64,000 nucleotides of DNA from the human T2T-CHM13v2.0 reference genome, Homo sapiens (GCF_009914755.1 NC_060943.1), one strand, 5' to 3'; shown: positions 54,001-59,307, counted from the stretch's first letter. Notes: generated from the sequence alone by a model not told the origin. Made by a program: numbers and translations.

Positions 54001-56006
54001 AATATCAGGTAGGCAACTCTCAGGGTCTACCTGAGATATTGCCCTAGAGGAGATGGATAGCTAGGGCTGCTGAAGACAGTCTGAGAGAGGAGGCTTCTTT
54101 CTGGTTGTGAGATCCAGGAGAGAACTTCCAGGAGGAGGTTACATTTGACCTGGACTTGGAGAGAGAAGGAGGGTTTGAATGTGGGCAAAGGACAGAGCTG
54201 CAGAAGGACGCCATGACACGGGGAGTGGCCTGAGTAAACAGGCGGAGGAAGGATGTGCGGAGCATCTGTAGAAAGGATCCCCATTTCAGCCGGTGCATTG
54301 GCTCCCGCCTGTAATCCCAGCACTTTGGGAGGCCAAGGTGGGCAGATCACCCAAGGTTAGGAGTTTGAGACCAGCCTGGCCACCATGGCGAAACCCTGTC
54401 TCTACCAAAAATACAAAAATTAGCTGGGCGTGCTGGCAGGCACCTTTAGCCCCAGCTACTCAGGAGGCTGAGGCAGGAGAATTGCTTGAACCCGGGAGGC
54501 AGAGGTTGCGGTGAGCTGAGATCGCGCCACTGCACTCCAGCCTGGGTGACAGAGCAAGACTCTGTCTCAAAAAAGAAAGAATGACAGGGTGCAGGCATGG
54601 GGGCTATCGAGGTAAGGGAAAAGCGGGGCAAAATCAGGGAGAGCTCGAATGAAAGGCAAGGGAGTTTGGAATGTATCCTATCAGCCGCTGAAATATTGTT
54701 TATTTCTCAAATATATCACCTTCTCTTTGTCCCCCATAGCTATTGTTGCAGCTCAGACTTCATCCTCTTTCTCCTGGACTGTTGCTTCCTCCTCACTGCA
54801 GACCCAGAGGAACCTTTCGAACACCCAAACCCGTTCTCCCATGGTTCAAAACCATTCCATAATTTCCATGACTTCCCCCATTGACGTGGGAGGGAGTCCG
54901 AGCTCCTCAGCTTGGCATTTGAGGCTCTTTGAAGAGGTAATGGAGTGGGAATGCAGACTAGAGACAGGAAAGCAGACATGGTGTTGAGGCTTCACAAAGA
55001 GCGTGCGGACAACCCCTGTTCTTTTGTTTCTGTGGCAGGGTCTCGCTCTGTTGCCCAGGCTGGAGTACAGTGTTGTGACCACAGCTCACTACAGCCTCAA
55101 CCTCCCAGGCACAAGAGATCCTCCCACCTCAGCTTCCTGAGTAGCTGGAACTACAGGCATGTACCATTACACCCGACTAATTTTTTTTAACATTTTGTAG
55201 GGAGAGGGTCTCCCTACATTGCCCAGGCTGGTCTCAAACTCTTGGGCTCAGCCTCTCAAAATGCTGGGATTACAGGTGTGAGCCACTGCGCCCAGCCCAA
55301 ACTCTGTTCTTGAAGCTCCCCAGCATCTGGTCCCATCAGGCCCCTAATTCACAAGATTCGCAGACCTTAGGGGTGGATTGAAAAGACAAGAGCCCCTAGC
55401 AAGCAGTGGACTTCTTTCTAGCCTCACCCCATGCTTCTTACTGCTGCCCCTCTCCTCATCCATTCCAAATCCTGCCCTCCAGGACAGACCAATCTGAGGT
55501 CAGAGTTAGCAGCAGGATACATCCTGGTCCTCTCTTGCCCCTGAGATCTCGCTGGGGCTGATGGCACTGCCACTGCTATGGTTGGGTAAGTAGAAGGAGA
55601 GGCAGCATGGAGGTGTCTTGGGGAGGTAAGGGTGGGTGGAGTTGGAAGGCAGACAGGGCTGAGGTAAGATGAAGGCTGAGGTAAGATGAAGTACCTAAAA
55701 AATTAGGTACTTGGCCAAGCACAGTGGCTCATGCCTGTAATCCCAGCATGCTGGGAGGCCAAGTTGGGCAGATCTCCTGAGGTCAGGAGTTGGATACCAG
55801 CCTGGCCAACATGGTGAAACCCTGTCTCTACTAAAAGTAGAAAAATTAGCCAGGTGTGGTGGTGGGCACCTGTAATCCCAGCTACTGGGGAGGCTGAGTT
55901 GGGAGAATCACTTGAACCCAGGAGTGGGTGTTGCAGTGAGCCAAGATCGTGCCACTGCACTTCACCCTGGGTGACAGCAAGACTCTGTCTAAAAAAGAAA
56001 AAAAAA

Positions 56007-56253
56007 GTAGAATCTTTATTCTACAATATAGATCCTCAAAAAACCCTCAGTCTTTGAAGACCAGAGTTCAGGTTCAAGCTCTACCACCTTGAGTAATTCT
56101 CTTCAGTTTGCTCACCTAGACAATGGGGTGTTCCCCTTCTACAGAGCAAAAGGAAATTTATTTGTGGAAACCATTCAACCACAACAATCCTAGCTTTCAC
56201 AAGGCTGTTGGGGAGGGGAGGGAGTTCCAAATGAGCTAATGGGTGGTGAGCAC
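56007..56253 (+). repeat. ~250-bp direct duplicate of 57828-58082
   Basis: Shared cagtctttgaagaccagagttcaggttcaagctctac...aaatgagctaatgggtgg. Confidence 0.9.
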
Positions 56254-56509
56254 AATTATTCACTAACGGTTCACTATGACATGGTCTCTTGTAATGTAAT
56301 GTGACTGAAGTCAAAATCTGCAGTTATTACAGAGGGCCATGTGCCTCTGTAGTTATGGTCCTTAATTATCACAATACTGTAGCATTGGTATTATCGTACC
56401 CACTTCTCTGATTGAGAAACTGAGATTCAGAAATGATACAACATGACCCAGATCACAAGATACGGTTAATACCAACAAGAAGAGCAATAAAAAATCCAGC
56501 AGACTAGAT

Positions 56510-57060
56510 TGGGGTGGTGCAGTTTAGGAGTCCCCCCAAGATGCCTCTGATTCAGTGATCCACAAGAAGGACTCAAAACTCAGCAGAACTGTTTTACTCA
56601 TGATTGCAGTTGATTATAGCAAAAGAGTACAGATGAAAATCAGTACAGGGAAGAGGTGCATAGGGCAGGGTCCAGGAGAGAGCAGGCATGAGCTTTCAGC
56701 TGACCTCTCCCAGTGGTGTTGCACCAATAGAGCTTACTTCTTTCTGCAACAATGTGTGGTGACATGCACAGACATGCCAAGTAGAGAAGTGCACCCAAGC
56801 CTTGGTGTCCAGGGTTTTTATTGTGGGTCTGGTCACTGACTTAGCTTAGTCTTCAGCCCCTCCAGAGGTCAAGCTGATGCCCCAGGATCCAGGGCTCCCA
56901 CCATAAATCATAGTGTTAGCATCAACTGATGAAGTCCAAGGTCCCAGGTAAACAAAGACACTCTTATCAGGCAGGATATCCCAAGGGTTTAGAGATCACC
57001 TCATAGGAGTTGGACAAGTGTCAAGCCTTTCTTAGGTAAGGTGACTCTTTTAATGCACAG
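56510..57060 (-). mobile_element. MER21-like LTR
   Basis: aaggactca..actcagca...gaagaggtgcatagggcag..tccaggaga motif; boundaries approximate. Confidence 0.55.
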
Positions 57061-57118
57061 ATATAATACAGGAGTATGCTAGGTGGGTCTGTTTTTCAAC
57101 TTGGATCTCTCCTTACAG

Positions 57119-57472
57119 GGCTACTTTCTCATGTTTTGATGGAAGTCAAGAAGATACCAGTGGAAGAGGGGCTGTGCACTACAATCCCTTGTGCATTTGA
57201 ATTTCCCAAAGAACCCCCAAGCAATTCCATGATCATGCACTACTGGCTCAACAAAAACATCAGCTCCCTGGTAGCTACAAATAAACCCAATGCTACCATT
57301 GGTGATAACACCAAGGACAAATTTTACATGACTGGGAATCTTGATGAAGAAGACTGTACCCTACTCATCCACGATATACTCAAAGGGAACAGCATAATAT
57401 ATTTATTCTACGCAGATCTAGGAGAACAAAAAAGTGCTTTCCTGGGGGAGAATATCAAACTTTTTGTGTCAG
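57119..57472 (+). pseudogene. Paralog V-set Ig exon (open, 354 nt)
   Basis: VEEGLCTTIPC...HYW...VATNK...DCTLLIHD...YLFYADLG; ccttacag acceptor, G|GTGATG donor. Confidence 0.88.
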
Positions 57473-58170
57473 GTGATGTTCAATATCATCCGATAAGTGG
57501 TTTGGAAAGAAGGAAATCCAAAAGTGGTTCTGGTGATTATGTGGTTTTTACCTGATGGGCACTGGGCTTTACAAAACCTTAGGTATTTGAGTTTTATAAT
57601 GATGCAATGAGATCAGTATAATAGGTAACTTTACTTTTCCAAATAGAAATGGCAAAGAGAGAAGCGATTCACCCTATATCATCCAACCAGTACAAAATAG
57701 AGAGGAAATGATCACAGATTGGGCTGGGAAGGGGCAGAGTCTAAGGGAGAACTGGGCTGGAAAAGGGAGACAGAGTAGGAGCTACCACTAGCACATGTAG
57801 TCTAGGACTCAGGTAAGGGGTCAGAATGTAGAATCCTCATTCTACAATGTAGAGCCTCAGAAAACTACTCACCCTCAGTCTTTGAAGACCAGAGTTCAGG
57901 TTCAAGCTCTACAACCTTGAGTAGTTCTCTTCAGTTTTATCACCTGGACGCTGGGCTGTTCCCCTTCCACACAGAGAAAGGAAATCTATTTGTGAAAAAC
58001 CATTAAACCACAACAATCCCAGGTTTCACAAGGCGGTTGGGGAGGTGAGGGGGTTGCAAATGAGCTAATGGGTGGGGAGCACTTTGTAACCTGGAAACGT
58101 TGTGCATCAGTGAAGTGTCCATGAGGGTCCCTTTTCCCCCAAGGTTTGGGTCTACTTCTCTCTTCTCCAG

Positions 58171-58434
58171 AGCTAACCCAAAAGCCAGAGCTCCACATGC
58201 CAGAGATTCTTTTGGCTGAGAAGACTGTGACCTTGAACTGTACCCTCAAAGGCACCTGCAAAGAAACCAAAGCCCTCTTCCACTCCCGGAAGAACCCAGC
58301 CATCTCCAGCAGCTCCTCCTCGGTGCTGCACTTCACCCTGAGGCCTGAGGACCATGGCAACACCCTTGGATGTCACTTGAACTTATCCCTAGCCAACGTG
58401 ACCAGAAGTAGCTTGGTCAAGCTCCAAGTGGTCT
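58171..58434 (+). pseudogene. Paralog first C2-set exon (open, 264 nt)
   Basis: ELTQKPELHMP...LNCTLKGTC...RPEDHGNTLGC; homologous to CD33 exon 3. Confidence 0.88.
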
Positions 58435-58772
58435 GTGAGTGCTGGTGGGCACAGGCAGGATCCTGAGAAATAGTGGGCTCAAGAAAAGACCTGAGCCCCA
58501 GAGGGAGAGAAGTCTTAGGAGCTGTCACATCTTCCCCCTTTGGGAAGACCTTTGGGGCTGAAAGGCCAGAGGTAGGAGCTGAGCCCAAGTCTGAGGCAGA
58601 TGTGGAGAGAGGATGAAAGGGGACTGTTTTGAGTCCCAGCCCCACTCTGGGTTGCCAGAAAGTCTTTCTGAAGCTCCCTGTGAATAGCAAGTAAAGAGAA
58701 GGCTGGGTCTTAGGGGAAGTAGAGAAGCAAAGTCAGGACATCTTGATGATCCCTGATTCTTCCTCTGCACAG

Positions 58773-59054
58773 CACCTGCCAGGTTGTTCAATTCCTCTTG
58801 TTCCTTGGAGAAGACAGTTCTGTGCAGCTGTTCCTTCCACGGGATCCCCACGCCCTCCGTGCAGTGGTGGATGGGAGGTGTCCCTGTGGCTGTGAACAGC
58901 ATGGATAACATCCTCCGGGTGACTTCTTCCACATGTGCCCCCTGGGCCAACAGCACCATCAGCCTCATTGGGGAGCCAGAAAGAGTCATGAGACTTCACT
59001 GTGAGGGGAAGAACCAATATGGAATTCACACTTCCAGCATCTTCCTGATACCAA
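58773..59054 (+). pseudogene. Paralog second C2 exon (open, 282 nt, defective donor)
   Basis: Same length as the SIGLECL1 Ig exon; followed by CTGAGT rather than GTGAG. Confidence 0.88.
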
Positions 59055-59204
59055 CTGAGTATCCAGGGACCTAGTGACTGAGCTGGAAAGAACACCTAAA
59101 GACCAGATGCAGATGGGCACAGGGCCGGAGGAAAGGGTAGAGAGTTTTAGCTCAGACTTTAAAGCCTTTGGAGAAAGGTGAATCTCACTTCCCTCCAATT
59201 CCAG

Positions 59205-59307
59205 ATAAGAAATCAGTTTCCAGTGTGTTCGTGAAAGGATTAATCCAGGGCATTGTATATGGAGCCATTGCATTCTCATTGCTCTTCTTCTGCCTCATCC
59301 TCTTGTC
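59205..59307 (+). pseudogene. Paralog transmembrane exon (open, 103 nt)
   Basis: [33 protein letters not shown]; ttccag acceptor, GTGAGT donor. Confidence 0.85.

What the first reader, a model, noticed from the sequence alone, without database searches (positions are those of the whole stretch)
55561..59307. Hidden, almost intact second SIGLECL-type receptor gene, more complete than SIGLECL1 itself
Seen in sequence: five exons splice in frame with no stop or frameshift, namely leader MALPLLWL, V-set (354 nt), C2 (264), C2 (282) and TM (103). All Ig exons are phase 1-1, and all but one of the nine visible splice sites are canonical. Established: this V-C2-C2-TM layout, with the GLC..IPC / DCTL cysteines, is the CD33-related Siglec architecture. 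Inference: about 1 kb of open coding sequence in an old duplicate, whose introns have diverged strongly from SIGLECL1, implies selection until recently or at present. I recall no human protein-coding gene here; the region may be annotated as lncRNA or pseudogene, and it may correspond to the second Siglecl gene of rodents. Caveats: the C2-1 C-strand Trp is replaced (LFHSRK versus CD33 IFSWLS), the leader is short, and no cytoplasmic exon is visible.
Basis: partly seen in the sequence, partly recalled or inferred. Interest (0 to 1): 0.9.

Follow-up and report, generated by a model that had tools for sequence, protein, structure and literature searches.

The report
Near-intact human SIGLECL1 paralogue pseudogene
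Four separately annotated scraps next to SIGLECL1 are really one five-exon, fully open Siglec-like gene that other mammals also carry and whose only visible defect in this human genome is one broken splice site.

Summary
Five exons join in frame: leader 55561-55585, V-set 57119-57472, C2 58171-58434, C2 58773-59054, and anchor 59205-59307. They give 342 open codons, and a TGA at 59309-59311 closes the frame at 343 residues. Eight of nine splice sites are canonical. The second C2 exon's donor reads CT where SIGLECL1 has GT.

It is not hidden. RefSeq already annotates it as four pieces: SIGLEC24P, LOC100420904, LINC01872 and LOC107985326.

New here:
- **One old gene.** The pieces form one gene, the human copy of an old paralogue of SIGLECL1 ("type B"). 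Eight type-B proteins from manatee, colugo, rhino, bat, dog/dingo and whales match it.
- **No tail by design.** Five of those eight end at the human stop, so the missing cytoplasmic tail is ancestral.
- **No sugar-binding arginine.** The sialic-acid arginine is Tyr, probably already before the duplication.
- **Recent constraint.** The human branch is not accelerated. An open frame is unlikely after about 2% neutral divergence.

Best reading: a recently disabled, still transcribed pseudogene. A skipped-exon or polymorphic functional form is not excluded. No primate DNA was available.

The parts
55561..55585 (+). Leader exon: ATG plus 8 codons and 1 base (phase 1), donor GTAAGT.
   Evidence: It is homologous to the first coding exon of SIGLECL1 (55567-55625 against 40703-40762, 78%). 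No annotated RNA uses it.
57119..57472 (+). V-set Ig exon, 354 nt, phase 1-1. This is RefSeq SIGLEC24P. Its acceptor is used by LINC01872 exon 3.
   Evidence: Open frame. Sixteen other human matches, all in Siglec genes or pseudogenes, at 28-38% identity. All 17 PDB sequence matches are Siglecs, best Siglec-7 at E 1.2e-11. AF2 model pLDDT 83.9. All Foldseek ranks listed through 42 are Siglecs, TMq 0.73-0.80. Tyr stands in place of the essential Arg.
58171..58434 (+). First C2-set exon, 264 nt, phase 1-1. It lies inside exon 1 of LOC107985326.
   Evidence: Open. All 6 other human matches are domain 2 of Siglecs, at 32-40%. All 8 PDB matches are Siglec-10, -5, -8 or CD33. The Cys pair and the extra inter-domain Cys are kept; the C-strand Trp is absent. 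It is 76% identical to colugo P0002.
58773..59054 (+). Second C2-set exon, 282 nt, phase 1-1. It is part of RefSeq LOC100420904.
   Evidence: Identity to the SIGLECL1 exon 41995-42276 is 73% at protein and 83% at nucleotide level. dN/dS against it is 0.32 (bootstrap 0.16-0.55) and dS is 0.48. Identity to colugo, bat, rhino and manatee proteins is 77-79%.
59055..59056 (+). Broken splice donor of the second C2 exon. It reads CT where SIGLECL1 has GT.
   Evidence: No in-phase GT lies before the in-frame stop seven codons downstream. In-exon in-phase GTs would cut away the domain's second Cys. The Gnomon RNA LOC107985326 joins 58434 to 59205 and so skips this exon (annotation given).
59205..59311 (+). 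Last coding exon: stalk, a hydrophobic anchor of about 23 residues, one more residue, then TGA (59309-59311).
   Evidence: Five of 8 type-B proteins from other mammals end at the same alignment column. The C-terminus is hydrophobic. It is 72% identical to the colugo protein. LOC107985326 exon 2 runs through the GT at 59308 to 59362 (annotation).
55709..56016 (.). Alu in intron 1.
   Evidence: Masked repeat in the annotation. Alu-type matches.
41154..41348 (+). Context: the decayed V-set remnant of the sister gene SIGLECL1, lying in its intron.
   Evidence: 38% protein identity with 1 TAA; 64% nucleotide identity, gaps, and a stop at the Tyr position.

Best explanation
**What it is.** The interval is one gene. 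It is the human copy of an old mammalian paralogue of SIGLECL1, here called type B.

**What it would encode.** The spliced frame gives a 343-residue secretory-pathway protein with these parts:
- a short signal peptide;
- a Siglec-type V-set domain that has Tyr in place of the sialic-acid-binding Arg;
- two C2-set domains;
- a C-terminal hydrophobic anchor followed by a single residue and a stop.

The protein would have no cytoplasmic tail. It would be a membrane-tethered Ig protein, either a tail-less transmembrane protein or GPI-anchored. It probably acts by binding through its ectodomain rather than by signalling itself, and probably not through canonical sialic-acid recognition.

**State in this human genome.** The donor of the second C2 exon is destroyed (CT). 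The only annotated RNAs are two non-overlapping lncRNA-type transcripts that reuse its splice sites but carry no signal-peptide-bearing ORF. The most likely status is a recently disabled, still transcribed unprocessed or unitary pseudogene.

**Shown.** The exon structure, the open frame and stop, the broken donor, the homology and orthology, the lack of a tail, and the lack of the Arg.

**Inferred.** That the inactivation is recent, the mode of anchoring, the ligand class, and testis expression. The last rests only on the probable mouse counterpart.
For: **Structure and frame.**

**The lesion.** The donor reads CT against GT in SIGLECL1, and there is no in-phase rescue. The annotated LOC107985326 model skips that exon.

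**Annotated RNAs.** The LINC01872 ORF starts at an internal Met of the V exon and has no stop. The LOC107985326 ORF starts at an internal Met of C2-1.

**Siglec kinship.**

**Two types among 15 'SIGLEC family-like protein 1' proteins**.
- Eight are type B, like this locus: manatee, colugo, black rhino, the bat H. armiger, dingo, dog, sperm whale and narwhal.
- Seven are type A, like SIGLECL1.
- Type A is a clade with 100/100 support.
- The best human match of colugo P0002 is this locus at 77%, against 68% for SIGLECL1.
- The reverse holds for tree shrew P0009: 80% against 66%.

**Conserved stop.** Five of 8 type-B rows end at the human stop column. No homologue of the SIGLECL1 or CD33 tail exons was found in the 29 kb down to IGLON5.

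**Constraint.**
- dN/dS is 0.32.
- Residues unique to human against unique to colugo, with five outgroups, were 17/17, 12/13, 15/16, 9/14 and 16/16.
- The human end branch is 0.13, against 0.12 for colugo.
- P(open) is below 5% beyond about 2.3% neutral divergence.

**Literature.** Mouse 4931406B18Rik is testis-specific and lies with the Siglec cluster and Iglon5. It is listed as coding in at least 4 of 5 non-human hominoids, with a human pseudogene counterpart, AC063977.5 (PMC7555810, Methods, Results and Table 1 read; PMC6842137, passages; bioRxiv 10.1101/051953, passages).
Against: - **No other ORF lesion.** There is no stop or frameshift in 343 codons, and the human protein branch is not accelerated. 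The data fit a living gene as well as a very young pseudogene.
- **Exon skipping keeps the frame.** Skipping the phase 1-1 C2-2 exon would give a 249-residue V-C2-anchor protein, so the donor lesion need not be a null.
- **No primate, rodent or population DNA was available.** The age and fixation of the CT donor are unknown.
- **The orthologues are N-terminally incomplete.** All type-B proteins retrieved are at most 183 residues, because the search only sees proteins up to 1.75 times the query length. Conservation of the leader, the V-set and the first half of C2-1 outside humans was not seen. The only hint is an Atlas cluster of 52 members whose 367-residue representative carries SIGLECL1_C, which is a lead and not a test.
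- **Some orthologue models are suspect.** Several (dog, rhino) look like annotation artefacts at their N-termini.
- **The Ensembl identity is unconfirmed.** I could not confirm that AC063977.5 is this locus, because Table S1 of PMC7555810 is closed.
- **Expression was not examined.** I looked only at RefSeq models.
- **GPI anchoring rests on sequence shape alone.**
Confidence: 0.65

Rival explanations
1. The gene is still functional in humans. One route is a C2-2-skipped mRNA (leader, V, C2-1, anchor) that gives a 249-residue membrane-tethered Siglec-like protein. The other is that the CT donor is one allele of a polymorphism, with some people carrying a fully spliceable gene, as happens with SIGLEC16/16P.
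For: - The ORF is complete and has a conserved stop.
- All other splice sites are canonical.
- Skipping a phase 1-1 exon keeps the frame, and an annotated RNA already joins 58434 to 59205.
- There is no rate acceleration on the human branch.
- SIGLEC genes are known for polymorphic pseudogenes (PMC7379906, passages).
Against: - No annotated transcript joins the leader to the V exon, or the V exon to C2-1.
- LINC01872 runs through the V donor, and LOC107985326 starts in intron 2.
- Both ORFs lack a signal peptide.
- RefSeq, HGNC and (according to two papers) Ensembl all call it a pseudogene.
- An intact ORF is expected anyway for a young pseudogene.
Confidence: 0.2
2. The locus now works as RNA. 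LINC01872 and LOC107985326 would be functional lncRNAs that happen to reuse exons of a dead gene, and the open frame would be irrelevant.
For: One BestRefSeq lncRNA and one Gnomon lncRNA model cover the V, C2-1 and anchor exons (annotation given).
Against: - The frame, the stop and the protein sequence are conserved across mammals in the manner of a coding gene.
- LINC01872 exon 2 is Alu-derived.
- The only two papers that name LINC01872 do so once each, in lists.
Confidence: 0.08
3. It is a long-dead duplicate, and its open frame is due to chance or to gene conversion from SIGLECL1.
For: - Gene conversion between the two types is visible in bats and carnivores, in the first half of the C2-2 exon.
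- Exon identity to SIGLECL1 (83%) is only a little above that of the flanking intron (75-78%).
Against: - SIGLECL1 has no intact V-set or C2-1 to act as a donor, yet both are open here.
- P(open) is about 3e-14 at the per-lineage divergence implied by dS 0.48.
- Orthologues in six or more other mammals keep the frame and the stop.
- Human types A and B differ throughout C2-2, so there has been no recent conversion.
Confidence: 0.02

Closest known systems
SIGLECL1 (SIGLEC family like 1; window 22953-45956)
   Same: It is the tandem neighbour on the same strand. The leader, C2 exon (73% protein, 83% nucleotide identity) and anchor exon (about 72% nucleotide) are homologous, with the same exon phases. 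Proteins from both genes are named 'SIGLEC family-like protein 1' in other mammals.
   Different: SIGLECL1 has lost its V-set (a decayed remnant with a stop) and its C2-1. It has a basic cytoplasmic tail on two further exons and is protein-coding. This locus keeps the V-set and C2-1, ends right after the anchor, and has a broken donor. The two form separate groups across mammals.
CD33 and other CD33-related Siglecs (Siglec-5, -7, -8, -10)
   Same: The order of V-set then C2-set domains is the same, with one phase 1-1 exon per Ig domain. The GLC, IPC and DCTL cysteines, the extra Cys in C2-1 and the VATN motif are shared. The best sequence and fold matches in the PDB are these proteins.
   Different: Identity is only 22-31% in the V-set. 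The essential Arg of the YFFR motif is Tyr. There is no ITIM tail and no charged residue within the anchor. The C2-1 Trp is absent.
Human-lineage Siglec losses: SIGLEC17P, SIGLEC13, SIGLEC12, SIGLEC16P
   Same: These are members of the same chr19 cluster that are dead or polymorphic in humans and have intact relatives elsewhere. Some also lack the Arg (PMC7379906, passages).
   Different: According to that paper, those carry frameshifts, deletions or missense changes. Here the only visible lesion is a splice donor, and the frame is fully open. The papers I could search do not discuss this locus among those losses.
Mouse 4931406B18Rik (testis-specific) and mouse Siglecl1
   Same: 4931406B18Rik lies with the mouse Siglec cluster, Iglon5 and Vsig10l. 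It is listed as having only a pseudogene counterpart in humans. A separate mouse symbol, Siglecl1, also exists. Two rodent genes would match the two types.
   Different: No rodent sequence was seen here, so which mouse gene is type B was not tested. Knock-out of 4931406B18Rik is reported to give no abnormal phenotype (PMC7555810 Results).

Membership tests
CD33-related Siglec (I-type lectin, Ig superfamily) | N-terminal V-set domain homologous to Siglec V-sets | tested here: met
   All 17 PDB sequence matches are Siglecs. All human-genome matches lie in Siglec genes or pseudogenes. All Foldseek ranks listed through 42 are Siglecs. The AF2 alignment was built from Siglec paralogues, so the fold result leans that way.
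CD33-related Siglec (I-type lectin, Ig superfamily) | Siglec cysteine pattern: B-E intrasheet pair in the V-set, plus a Cys in the V-set and a Cys in C2-1 for the inter-domain bond | tested here: met
   C19, C24 and C79 are invariant across 13 V-sets. The Cys pair and the extra Cys align in C2-1.
CD33-related Siglec (I-type lectin, Ig superfamily) | Essential F-strand arginine that binds the sialic-acid carboxylate | tested here: not met
   Tyr stands at that column. Eleven of the 12 human paralogues aligned have Arg and one (SIGLEC12) has Gln. The SIGLECL1 remnant has TAA there, one base away from Tyr.
CD33-related Siglec (I-type lectin, Ig superfamily) | Signalling part: a cytoplasmic ITIM or ITIM-like motif, or a charged transmembrane residue for DAP12 | tested here: not met
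   The stop comes one codon after the anchor. No tail-exon homologue was found in 29 kb. The only Lys lies just outside the hydrophobic stretch.
CD33-related Siglec (I-type lectin, Ig superfamily) | Binding of sialylated glycans | not testable with these tools
   This needs a glycan array or binding assay with the expressed ectodomain.
SIGLECL1 family (Pfam PF27822 SIGLECL1_C, as precomputed for the hits) | The C2 domain and anchor region of SIGLECL1 | tested here: inconclusive
   Thirteen of the 15 homologues carry a precomputed PF27822. This locus is 59-79% identical to the 15 homologues over the C2-2 frame. The local Pfam copy lacks the model: P0001 and P0009, which both carry it, get no such hit. 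A direct scan was therefore impossible.
SIGLECL1 family (type A proper) | Basic cytoplasmic tail encoded by two further exons | tested here: not met
Unprocessed or unitary pseudogene | At least one disabling lesion | tested here: met
   The C2-2 donor reads CT. However, skipping that exon keeps the frame, so the lesion may not be a null.
Unprocessed or unitary pseudogene | Premature stops or frameshifts in the frame | tested here: not met
   There are none in 343 codons.
Unprocessed or unitary pseudogene | No mRNA that encodes the ancestral protein | tested here: inconclusive
   Only RefSeq models were examined. Neither lncRNA carries the leader or a signal-peptide ORF. No read data were available.
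GPI-anchored Ig protein | A C-terminal hydrophobic stretch with no cytoplasmic residues, preceded by small residues and a short spacer | tested here: inconclusive
   The shape fits and is conserved in 5 of 8 type-B rows. No GPI predictor or experiment was available. The same segment serves as a transmembrane helix in type A.

The most novel reading that the evidence does not exclude
Humans still make a protein from this locus. It would be a tail-less, possibly GPI-anchored Siglec-like receptor without the sialic-acid arginine. It could come from an exon-skipped mRNA (V, C2, anchor; 249 residues) or from an allele with an intact donor that still segregates. That would add an unannotated member to the human Siglec-like repertoire, with a ligand that is not canonical sialic acid and a likely role in testis.
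Probability: 0.15. Interest if true: 0.75.

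Novelty: new member of a known kind. Interest (0 to 1): 0.45.

Why it matters
Human-specific changes in the CD33-related Siglec cluster are a long-running theme in human evolution and immunity. 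This locus is a clean candidate for that list.

- **What is new.** It is a complete, conserved, tail-less and arginine-less Siglec-like gene whose only visible defect in a human genome is one splice donor. The current annotation splits it into two pseudogene fragments and two lncRNAs.
- **Family history.** Treating it as one gene clarifies SIGLECL1. There are two ancient paralogues, and SIGLECL1 is the truncated one.
- **A concrete test.** The state of one dinucleotide across primates and human populations would date the loss.
- **An unstudied protein class.** Other mammals carry the protein, and it has not been studied as a class.

If the gene proves alive or polymorphic in people, it would be a new human cell-surface protein.

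Tried and rejected
**Protein word searches with the V exon.** The exon alone and its stop-to-stop open frame both came back blank. The tool only sees proteins of 0.55 to 1.75 times the query length, and it left out 25 and 9 unnamed candidates. A blank therefore says little about full-length relatives.

**Search for tail exons.** I compared the SIGLECL1 3' part and peptides of SIGLECL1 and CD33 tail exons with 59308-88200, using blastn and tblastn. Nothing scored below E 0.007 (DNA) or 0.049 (protein). I first read this as loss of the exons. I then rejected that reading in favour of an ancestral stop, once the orthologues were seen.

**Trp loss and the short poly-Ser loop in C2-1 as signs of human decay.** Rejected, because the orthologues share both features.

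**Cryptic-donor rescue of the C2-2 exon.** Rejected.

**Chance ORF, or maintenance by gene conversion.** Rejected.

**Pfam.** It gives only sub-threshold Ig hits for the single exons.

**Literature.**
- No paper holds 'SIGLEC24P'.
- 'LINC01872' appears in 2 papers, in lists only.
- 'AC063977.5' appears in 1 paper.
- Cao et al. 2009, which probably named the SIGLEC pseudogenes (recalled), is not held.
- I did not find the PMC id of Angata et al. 2004.
- Table S1 of PMC7555810 is closed. It would give the coordinates of AC063977.5 and the number of apes and monkeys with a coding copy, so that link stays unverified.

**Correction of my own notebook.** I first noted that the start Met of some models sits at the Trp column. 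On recount, the column holds Arg in human, Ser in colugo, manatee and whale, and Thr in bat.

Full report
**1. What is in the sequence.**

| Exon | Coordinates | Length | Acceptor / donor |
|---|---|---|---|
| Leader | 55561-55585 | 25 nt | ATG start / GTAAGT |
| V-set | 57119-57472 | 354 nt | AG / GT |
| C2-1 | 58171-58434 | 264 nt | AG / GT |
| C2-2 | 58773-59054 | 282 nt | AG / **CT** |
| Anchor | 59205-59307 | 103 nt | AG / GTGAGT |

- The joined sequence is 1028 nt, or 342 codons, with no stop. The Ig exons are phase 1-1.
- SIGLECL1 has GT at the homologous C2-2 donor position.
- No in-phase GT lies before the in-frame stop seven codons downstream of that donor.
- The in-exon in-phase GTs would remove the domain's second cysteine. 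The lesion is therefore real.
- Reading on from 59307 gives one more codon and then TGA at 59309-59311. The ORF is complete at 343 codons.

**2. It is not hidden.**

According to the RefSeq annotation supplied with the finding:
- the V exon is SIGLEC24P;
- C2-2 plus the anchor exon is LOC100420904 ('SIGLEC family like 1 pseudogene');
- LINC01872 exon 3 starts at the V acceptor (57119) but runs through the V donor to 57519;
- the Gnomon lncRNA LOC107985326 starts in intron 2 (58061), contains C2-1, joins 58434 to 59205 (skipping the exon with the broken donor), and runs through the GT at 59308.

Neither RNA contains the leader. Their longest ORFs start at internal methionines of the V exon and of C2-1, and they lack a signal peptide. 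LINC01872 exon 2 lies in an Alu. What the annotation does not say is that these four features are one gene with one complete frame.

**3. What family it belongs to.**

*V exon.*
- Its 16 other matches in the human genome all lie in Siglec genes or pseudogenes, at 28-38% identity. The highest is a remnant with a TAA inside a SIGLECL1 intron.
- All 17 PDB sequence matches are Siglecs, best Siglec-7 at E 1.2e-11.
- An AlphaFold model built on an alignment of 12 human Siglec V-sets has pLDDT 83.9.
- Its listed Foldseek ranks through 42 are all Siglec entries, with TMq 0.73-0.80. The alignment biases this result towards Siglecs.

*Conserved and missing features.*
- The Siglec cysteines and the VATN motif are kept.
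- The essential arginine column holds Tyr. Eleven of the 12 aligned paralogues have Arg there and SIGLEC12 has Gln.
- The SIGLECL1 remnant has TAA at that codon, one base away from Tyr. The arginine was therefore probably gone before the two genes separated (inference).

*C2 exons.*
- C2-1 matches only domain 2 of Siglecs: 6 of 6 other human hits and 8 of 8 PDB hits.
- C2-1 keeps its three cysteines but lacks the C-strand Trp found in 12 of 12 paralogues.
- C2-2 is 73% identical to the single C2 exon of SIGLECL1.
- Its 18 PDB matches are generic Ig proteins, with no Siglec among them.

**4. Relation to SIGLECL1.**

- Outside Alus, only three segments align between the two genes: the leader (78%), C2-2 with 128 nt of upstream intron (80%), and the anchor exon (71%).
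- The C2-2 exon is 83% identical, against 75-78% and many gaps in the flanking intron.
- dN/dS for C2-2 is 0.32 (bootstrap 0.16-0.55, none of 500 replicates at or above 1), with dS 0.48. This is an old duplicate.
- SIGLECL1 keeps only about two thirds of a V exon, at 64% identity with a stop and 1-nt gaps, and has no C2-1.

**5. Orthologues.**

The third protein search used the open frame around C2-2. It returned 15 proteins of 84-183 residues, most of them named 'SIGLEC family-like protein 1'. Aligned, they fall into two types.

| | Type B (8 rows) | Type A (7 rows) |
|---|---|---|
| Species | Manatee, colugo, black rhino, bat H. armiger, dingo, dog, sperm whale, narwhal | Two chimpanzee proteins, tree shrew, squirrel, bat H. 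larvatus, snow leopard, raccoon dog |
| Resembles | This locus | SIGLECL1 |
| Shared features | Second half of C2-2, the stalk and the anchor; where present, the end of C2-1 including the poly-Ser loop | The SIGLECL1 form of those regions; basic tail in the rows that extend past the anchor |

- Five of the eight type-B rows end at exactly the column of the human stop. Rhino, dog P0006 and narwhal do not.
- In a tree rooted on human Siglec-5, -10 and -11, type A is a clade with 100/100 support. For this tree I left out P0006, P0013, P0014 and P0015 as near-duplicate, fragmentary or poor models.
- Type B is an unresolved, short-branched grade; it is monophyletic in only 4% of bootstrap trees.
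- Reciprocal searches agree. Colugo P0002 hits this locus best, at 77% against 68% for SIGLECL1, and also hits its C2-1 (76%) and anchor exon (72%).
- Tree shrew P0009 hits SIGLECL1 best, at 80% against 66%.

Both types occur in Laurasiatheria and in Euarchontoglires, so the duplication predates their common ancestor (inference). The missing tail is therefore an ancestral property of type B, not a gap in the human locus. This also explains why no tail-exon homologue exists in the 29 kb down to IGLON5.

The Trp column of C2-1 holds Arg in human, Ser in colugo, manatee and whale, and Thr in bat. That loss is shared too (with an alignment uncertainty of one or two columns).

**6. How recently was it constrained?**

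- Relative-rate counts give residues unique to human against residues unique to colugo. With five outgroups they are 17/17, 12/13, 15/16, 9/14 and 16/16.
- The human end branch (0.13) is like those of colugo and bat (0.12).
- I ran a neutral-decay calculation on this very CDS. About 2.7% of substitutions make a stop, and I assumed an indel-to-substitution ratio of 0.125 with 80% of indels frameshifting.

| Neutral divergence | P(frame still open) |
|---|---|
| 0.5% | 0.52 |
| 1% | 0.27 |
| 2% | 0.07 |
| 3% | 0.02 |
| 24% | 3e-14 |

The frame has been protected for nearly all of its history. Any neutral period is short, of the order of ape-lineage divergence or less (the divergence scale is from my own knowledge). 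One splice lesion with no ORF lesion is what a young pseudogene looks like. It is also what a living gene with a dispensable exon would look like.

**7. Literature.**

- No paper in the library holds 'SIGLEC24P'.
- PMC7555810 (Methods, Results, Table 1 and passages read) lists a human pseudogene, AC063977.5, as 'consistent' with the mouse gene 4931406B18Rik and rat LOC690483. Both are almost testis-exclusive.
- That screen required a coding orthologue in at least 4 of 5 non-human hominoids and at least 2 of 12 Old World monkeys. It also cites a knock-out of the mouse gene with no abnormal phenotype.
- PMC6842137 (passages) marks the same mouse gene as 'pseudogene in Ensembl' in humans.
- bioRxiv 10.1101/051953 (passages) places 4931406B18Rik with the mouse Siglec cluster, Iglon5 and Vsig10l. 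That is the interval syntenic to this one.
- I could not confirm that AC063977.5 is this locus, because the supplementary table is closed.
- A mouse symbol Siglecl1 also exists (PMC11651100, one table row). Rodents may therefore have both types. Which is which was not tested.
- Human SIGLECL1 is described as testis-exclusive (PMC10749072, passages).
- The Atlas search with bat P0004 points to a 52-member cluster whose 367-residue representative carries SIGLECL1_C. This is a lead for full-length type-B proteins. It also shows an 83-member cluster of about 201 residues for type A.

**8. Mechanism, with its status.**

*Shown.* The frame encodes leader, Siglec-like V-set without the arginine, C2, C2, a hydrophobic C-terminus and a stop.

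*Inferred.*
- The ancestral product is a membrane-tethered ectodomain with no signalling tail.
- The end of the protein has small residues, a short spacer, then about 20 hydrophobic residues and nothing after them. That is the shape of a GPI-attachment signal. A tail-less transmembrane protein is the alternative.
- Without the arginine, canonical sialic-acid binding is unlikely.
- In this human genome the C2-2 donor is dead and the annotated RNAs cannot make a secreted or membrane protein. The best reading is a young, transcribed pseudogene (0.65).
- The main rival is a living exon-skipped or polymorphic gene (0.2).

**9. Verdict.**

The locus is an annotated but fragmented and uncharacterised member of a known family, and interest is moderate. 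They are the state of one dinucleotide across primates and people, junction-level RNA data, and full-length orthologues.

Noticed in passing
window 56018-56253 and 57838-58082: A direct repeat of about 240 nt, 86-91% identical, with a start-to-start spacing of 1829 nt. One copy is in intron 1 right after the Alu, the other in intron 2 just upstream of C2-1. These are the only two copies in the whole genome. The repeat is younger than the SIGLECL1/type-B duplication. The LOC107985326 model starts inside the second copy (58061).
   Followed up: partly
window 41154-41348 (SIGLECL1 intron): A decayed V-set exon remnant of SIGLECL1. It is 64% identical to the V exon here, with 1-nt gaps and a TAA at the column where this locus has the Tyr that replaces the Siglec arginine. 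SIGLECL1 has no trace of a C2-1 exon.
   Followed up: yes
proteins P0004 against P0011 (two Hipposideros bats) and P0005 against P0015 (dingo, raccoon dog): Within bats and within carnivores, the type-A and type-B proteins share lineage-specific residues in the first half of the C2 domain but differ in the second half and in the anchor. This looks like gene conversion between the two paralogues. The human pair shows no such patch.
   Followed up: partly
proteins P0003, P0005, P0006 (rhino, dingo, dog) against window 58350-58434: These models begin with a short stretch that resembles the +1 frame of the 3' end of the human C2-1 exon rather than its Ig frame (compare). Their N-termini are therefore probably annotation artefacts or reflect indels in those species.
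   Followed up: no
window 55039-55156 (LINC01872 exon 2): The middle exon of the BestRefSeq lncRNA lies wholly inside an Alu (masked repeat 55017-55303). It is used in place of the gene's own leader exon, 400 nt downstream.
   Followed up: no
about 86700-87700 in window numbering (L002/L003, just upstream of IGLON5): The tblastn run gave a ladder of weak hits spaced 37 nt apart on the minus strand, inside masked repeats. This is a minisatellite-like array next to the IGLON5 start.
   Followed up: no
literature (PMC11905727, passages): The paper reports that an ERV-Han solo LTR holds a transcription start site of SIGLECL1. It also describes SIGLECL1 as recognising N-glycolylneuraminic acid. That seems to be a mix-up with SIGLEC12, whose old name was Siglec-L1 (recalled, not checked).
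   Followed up: no
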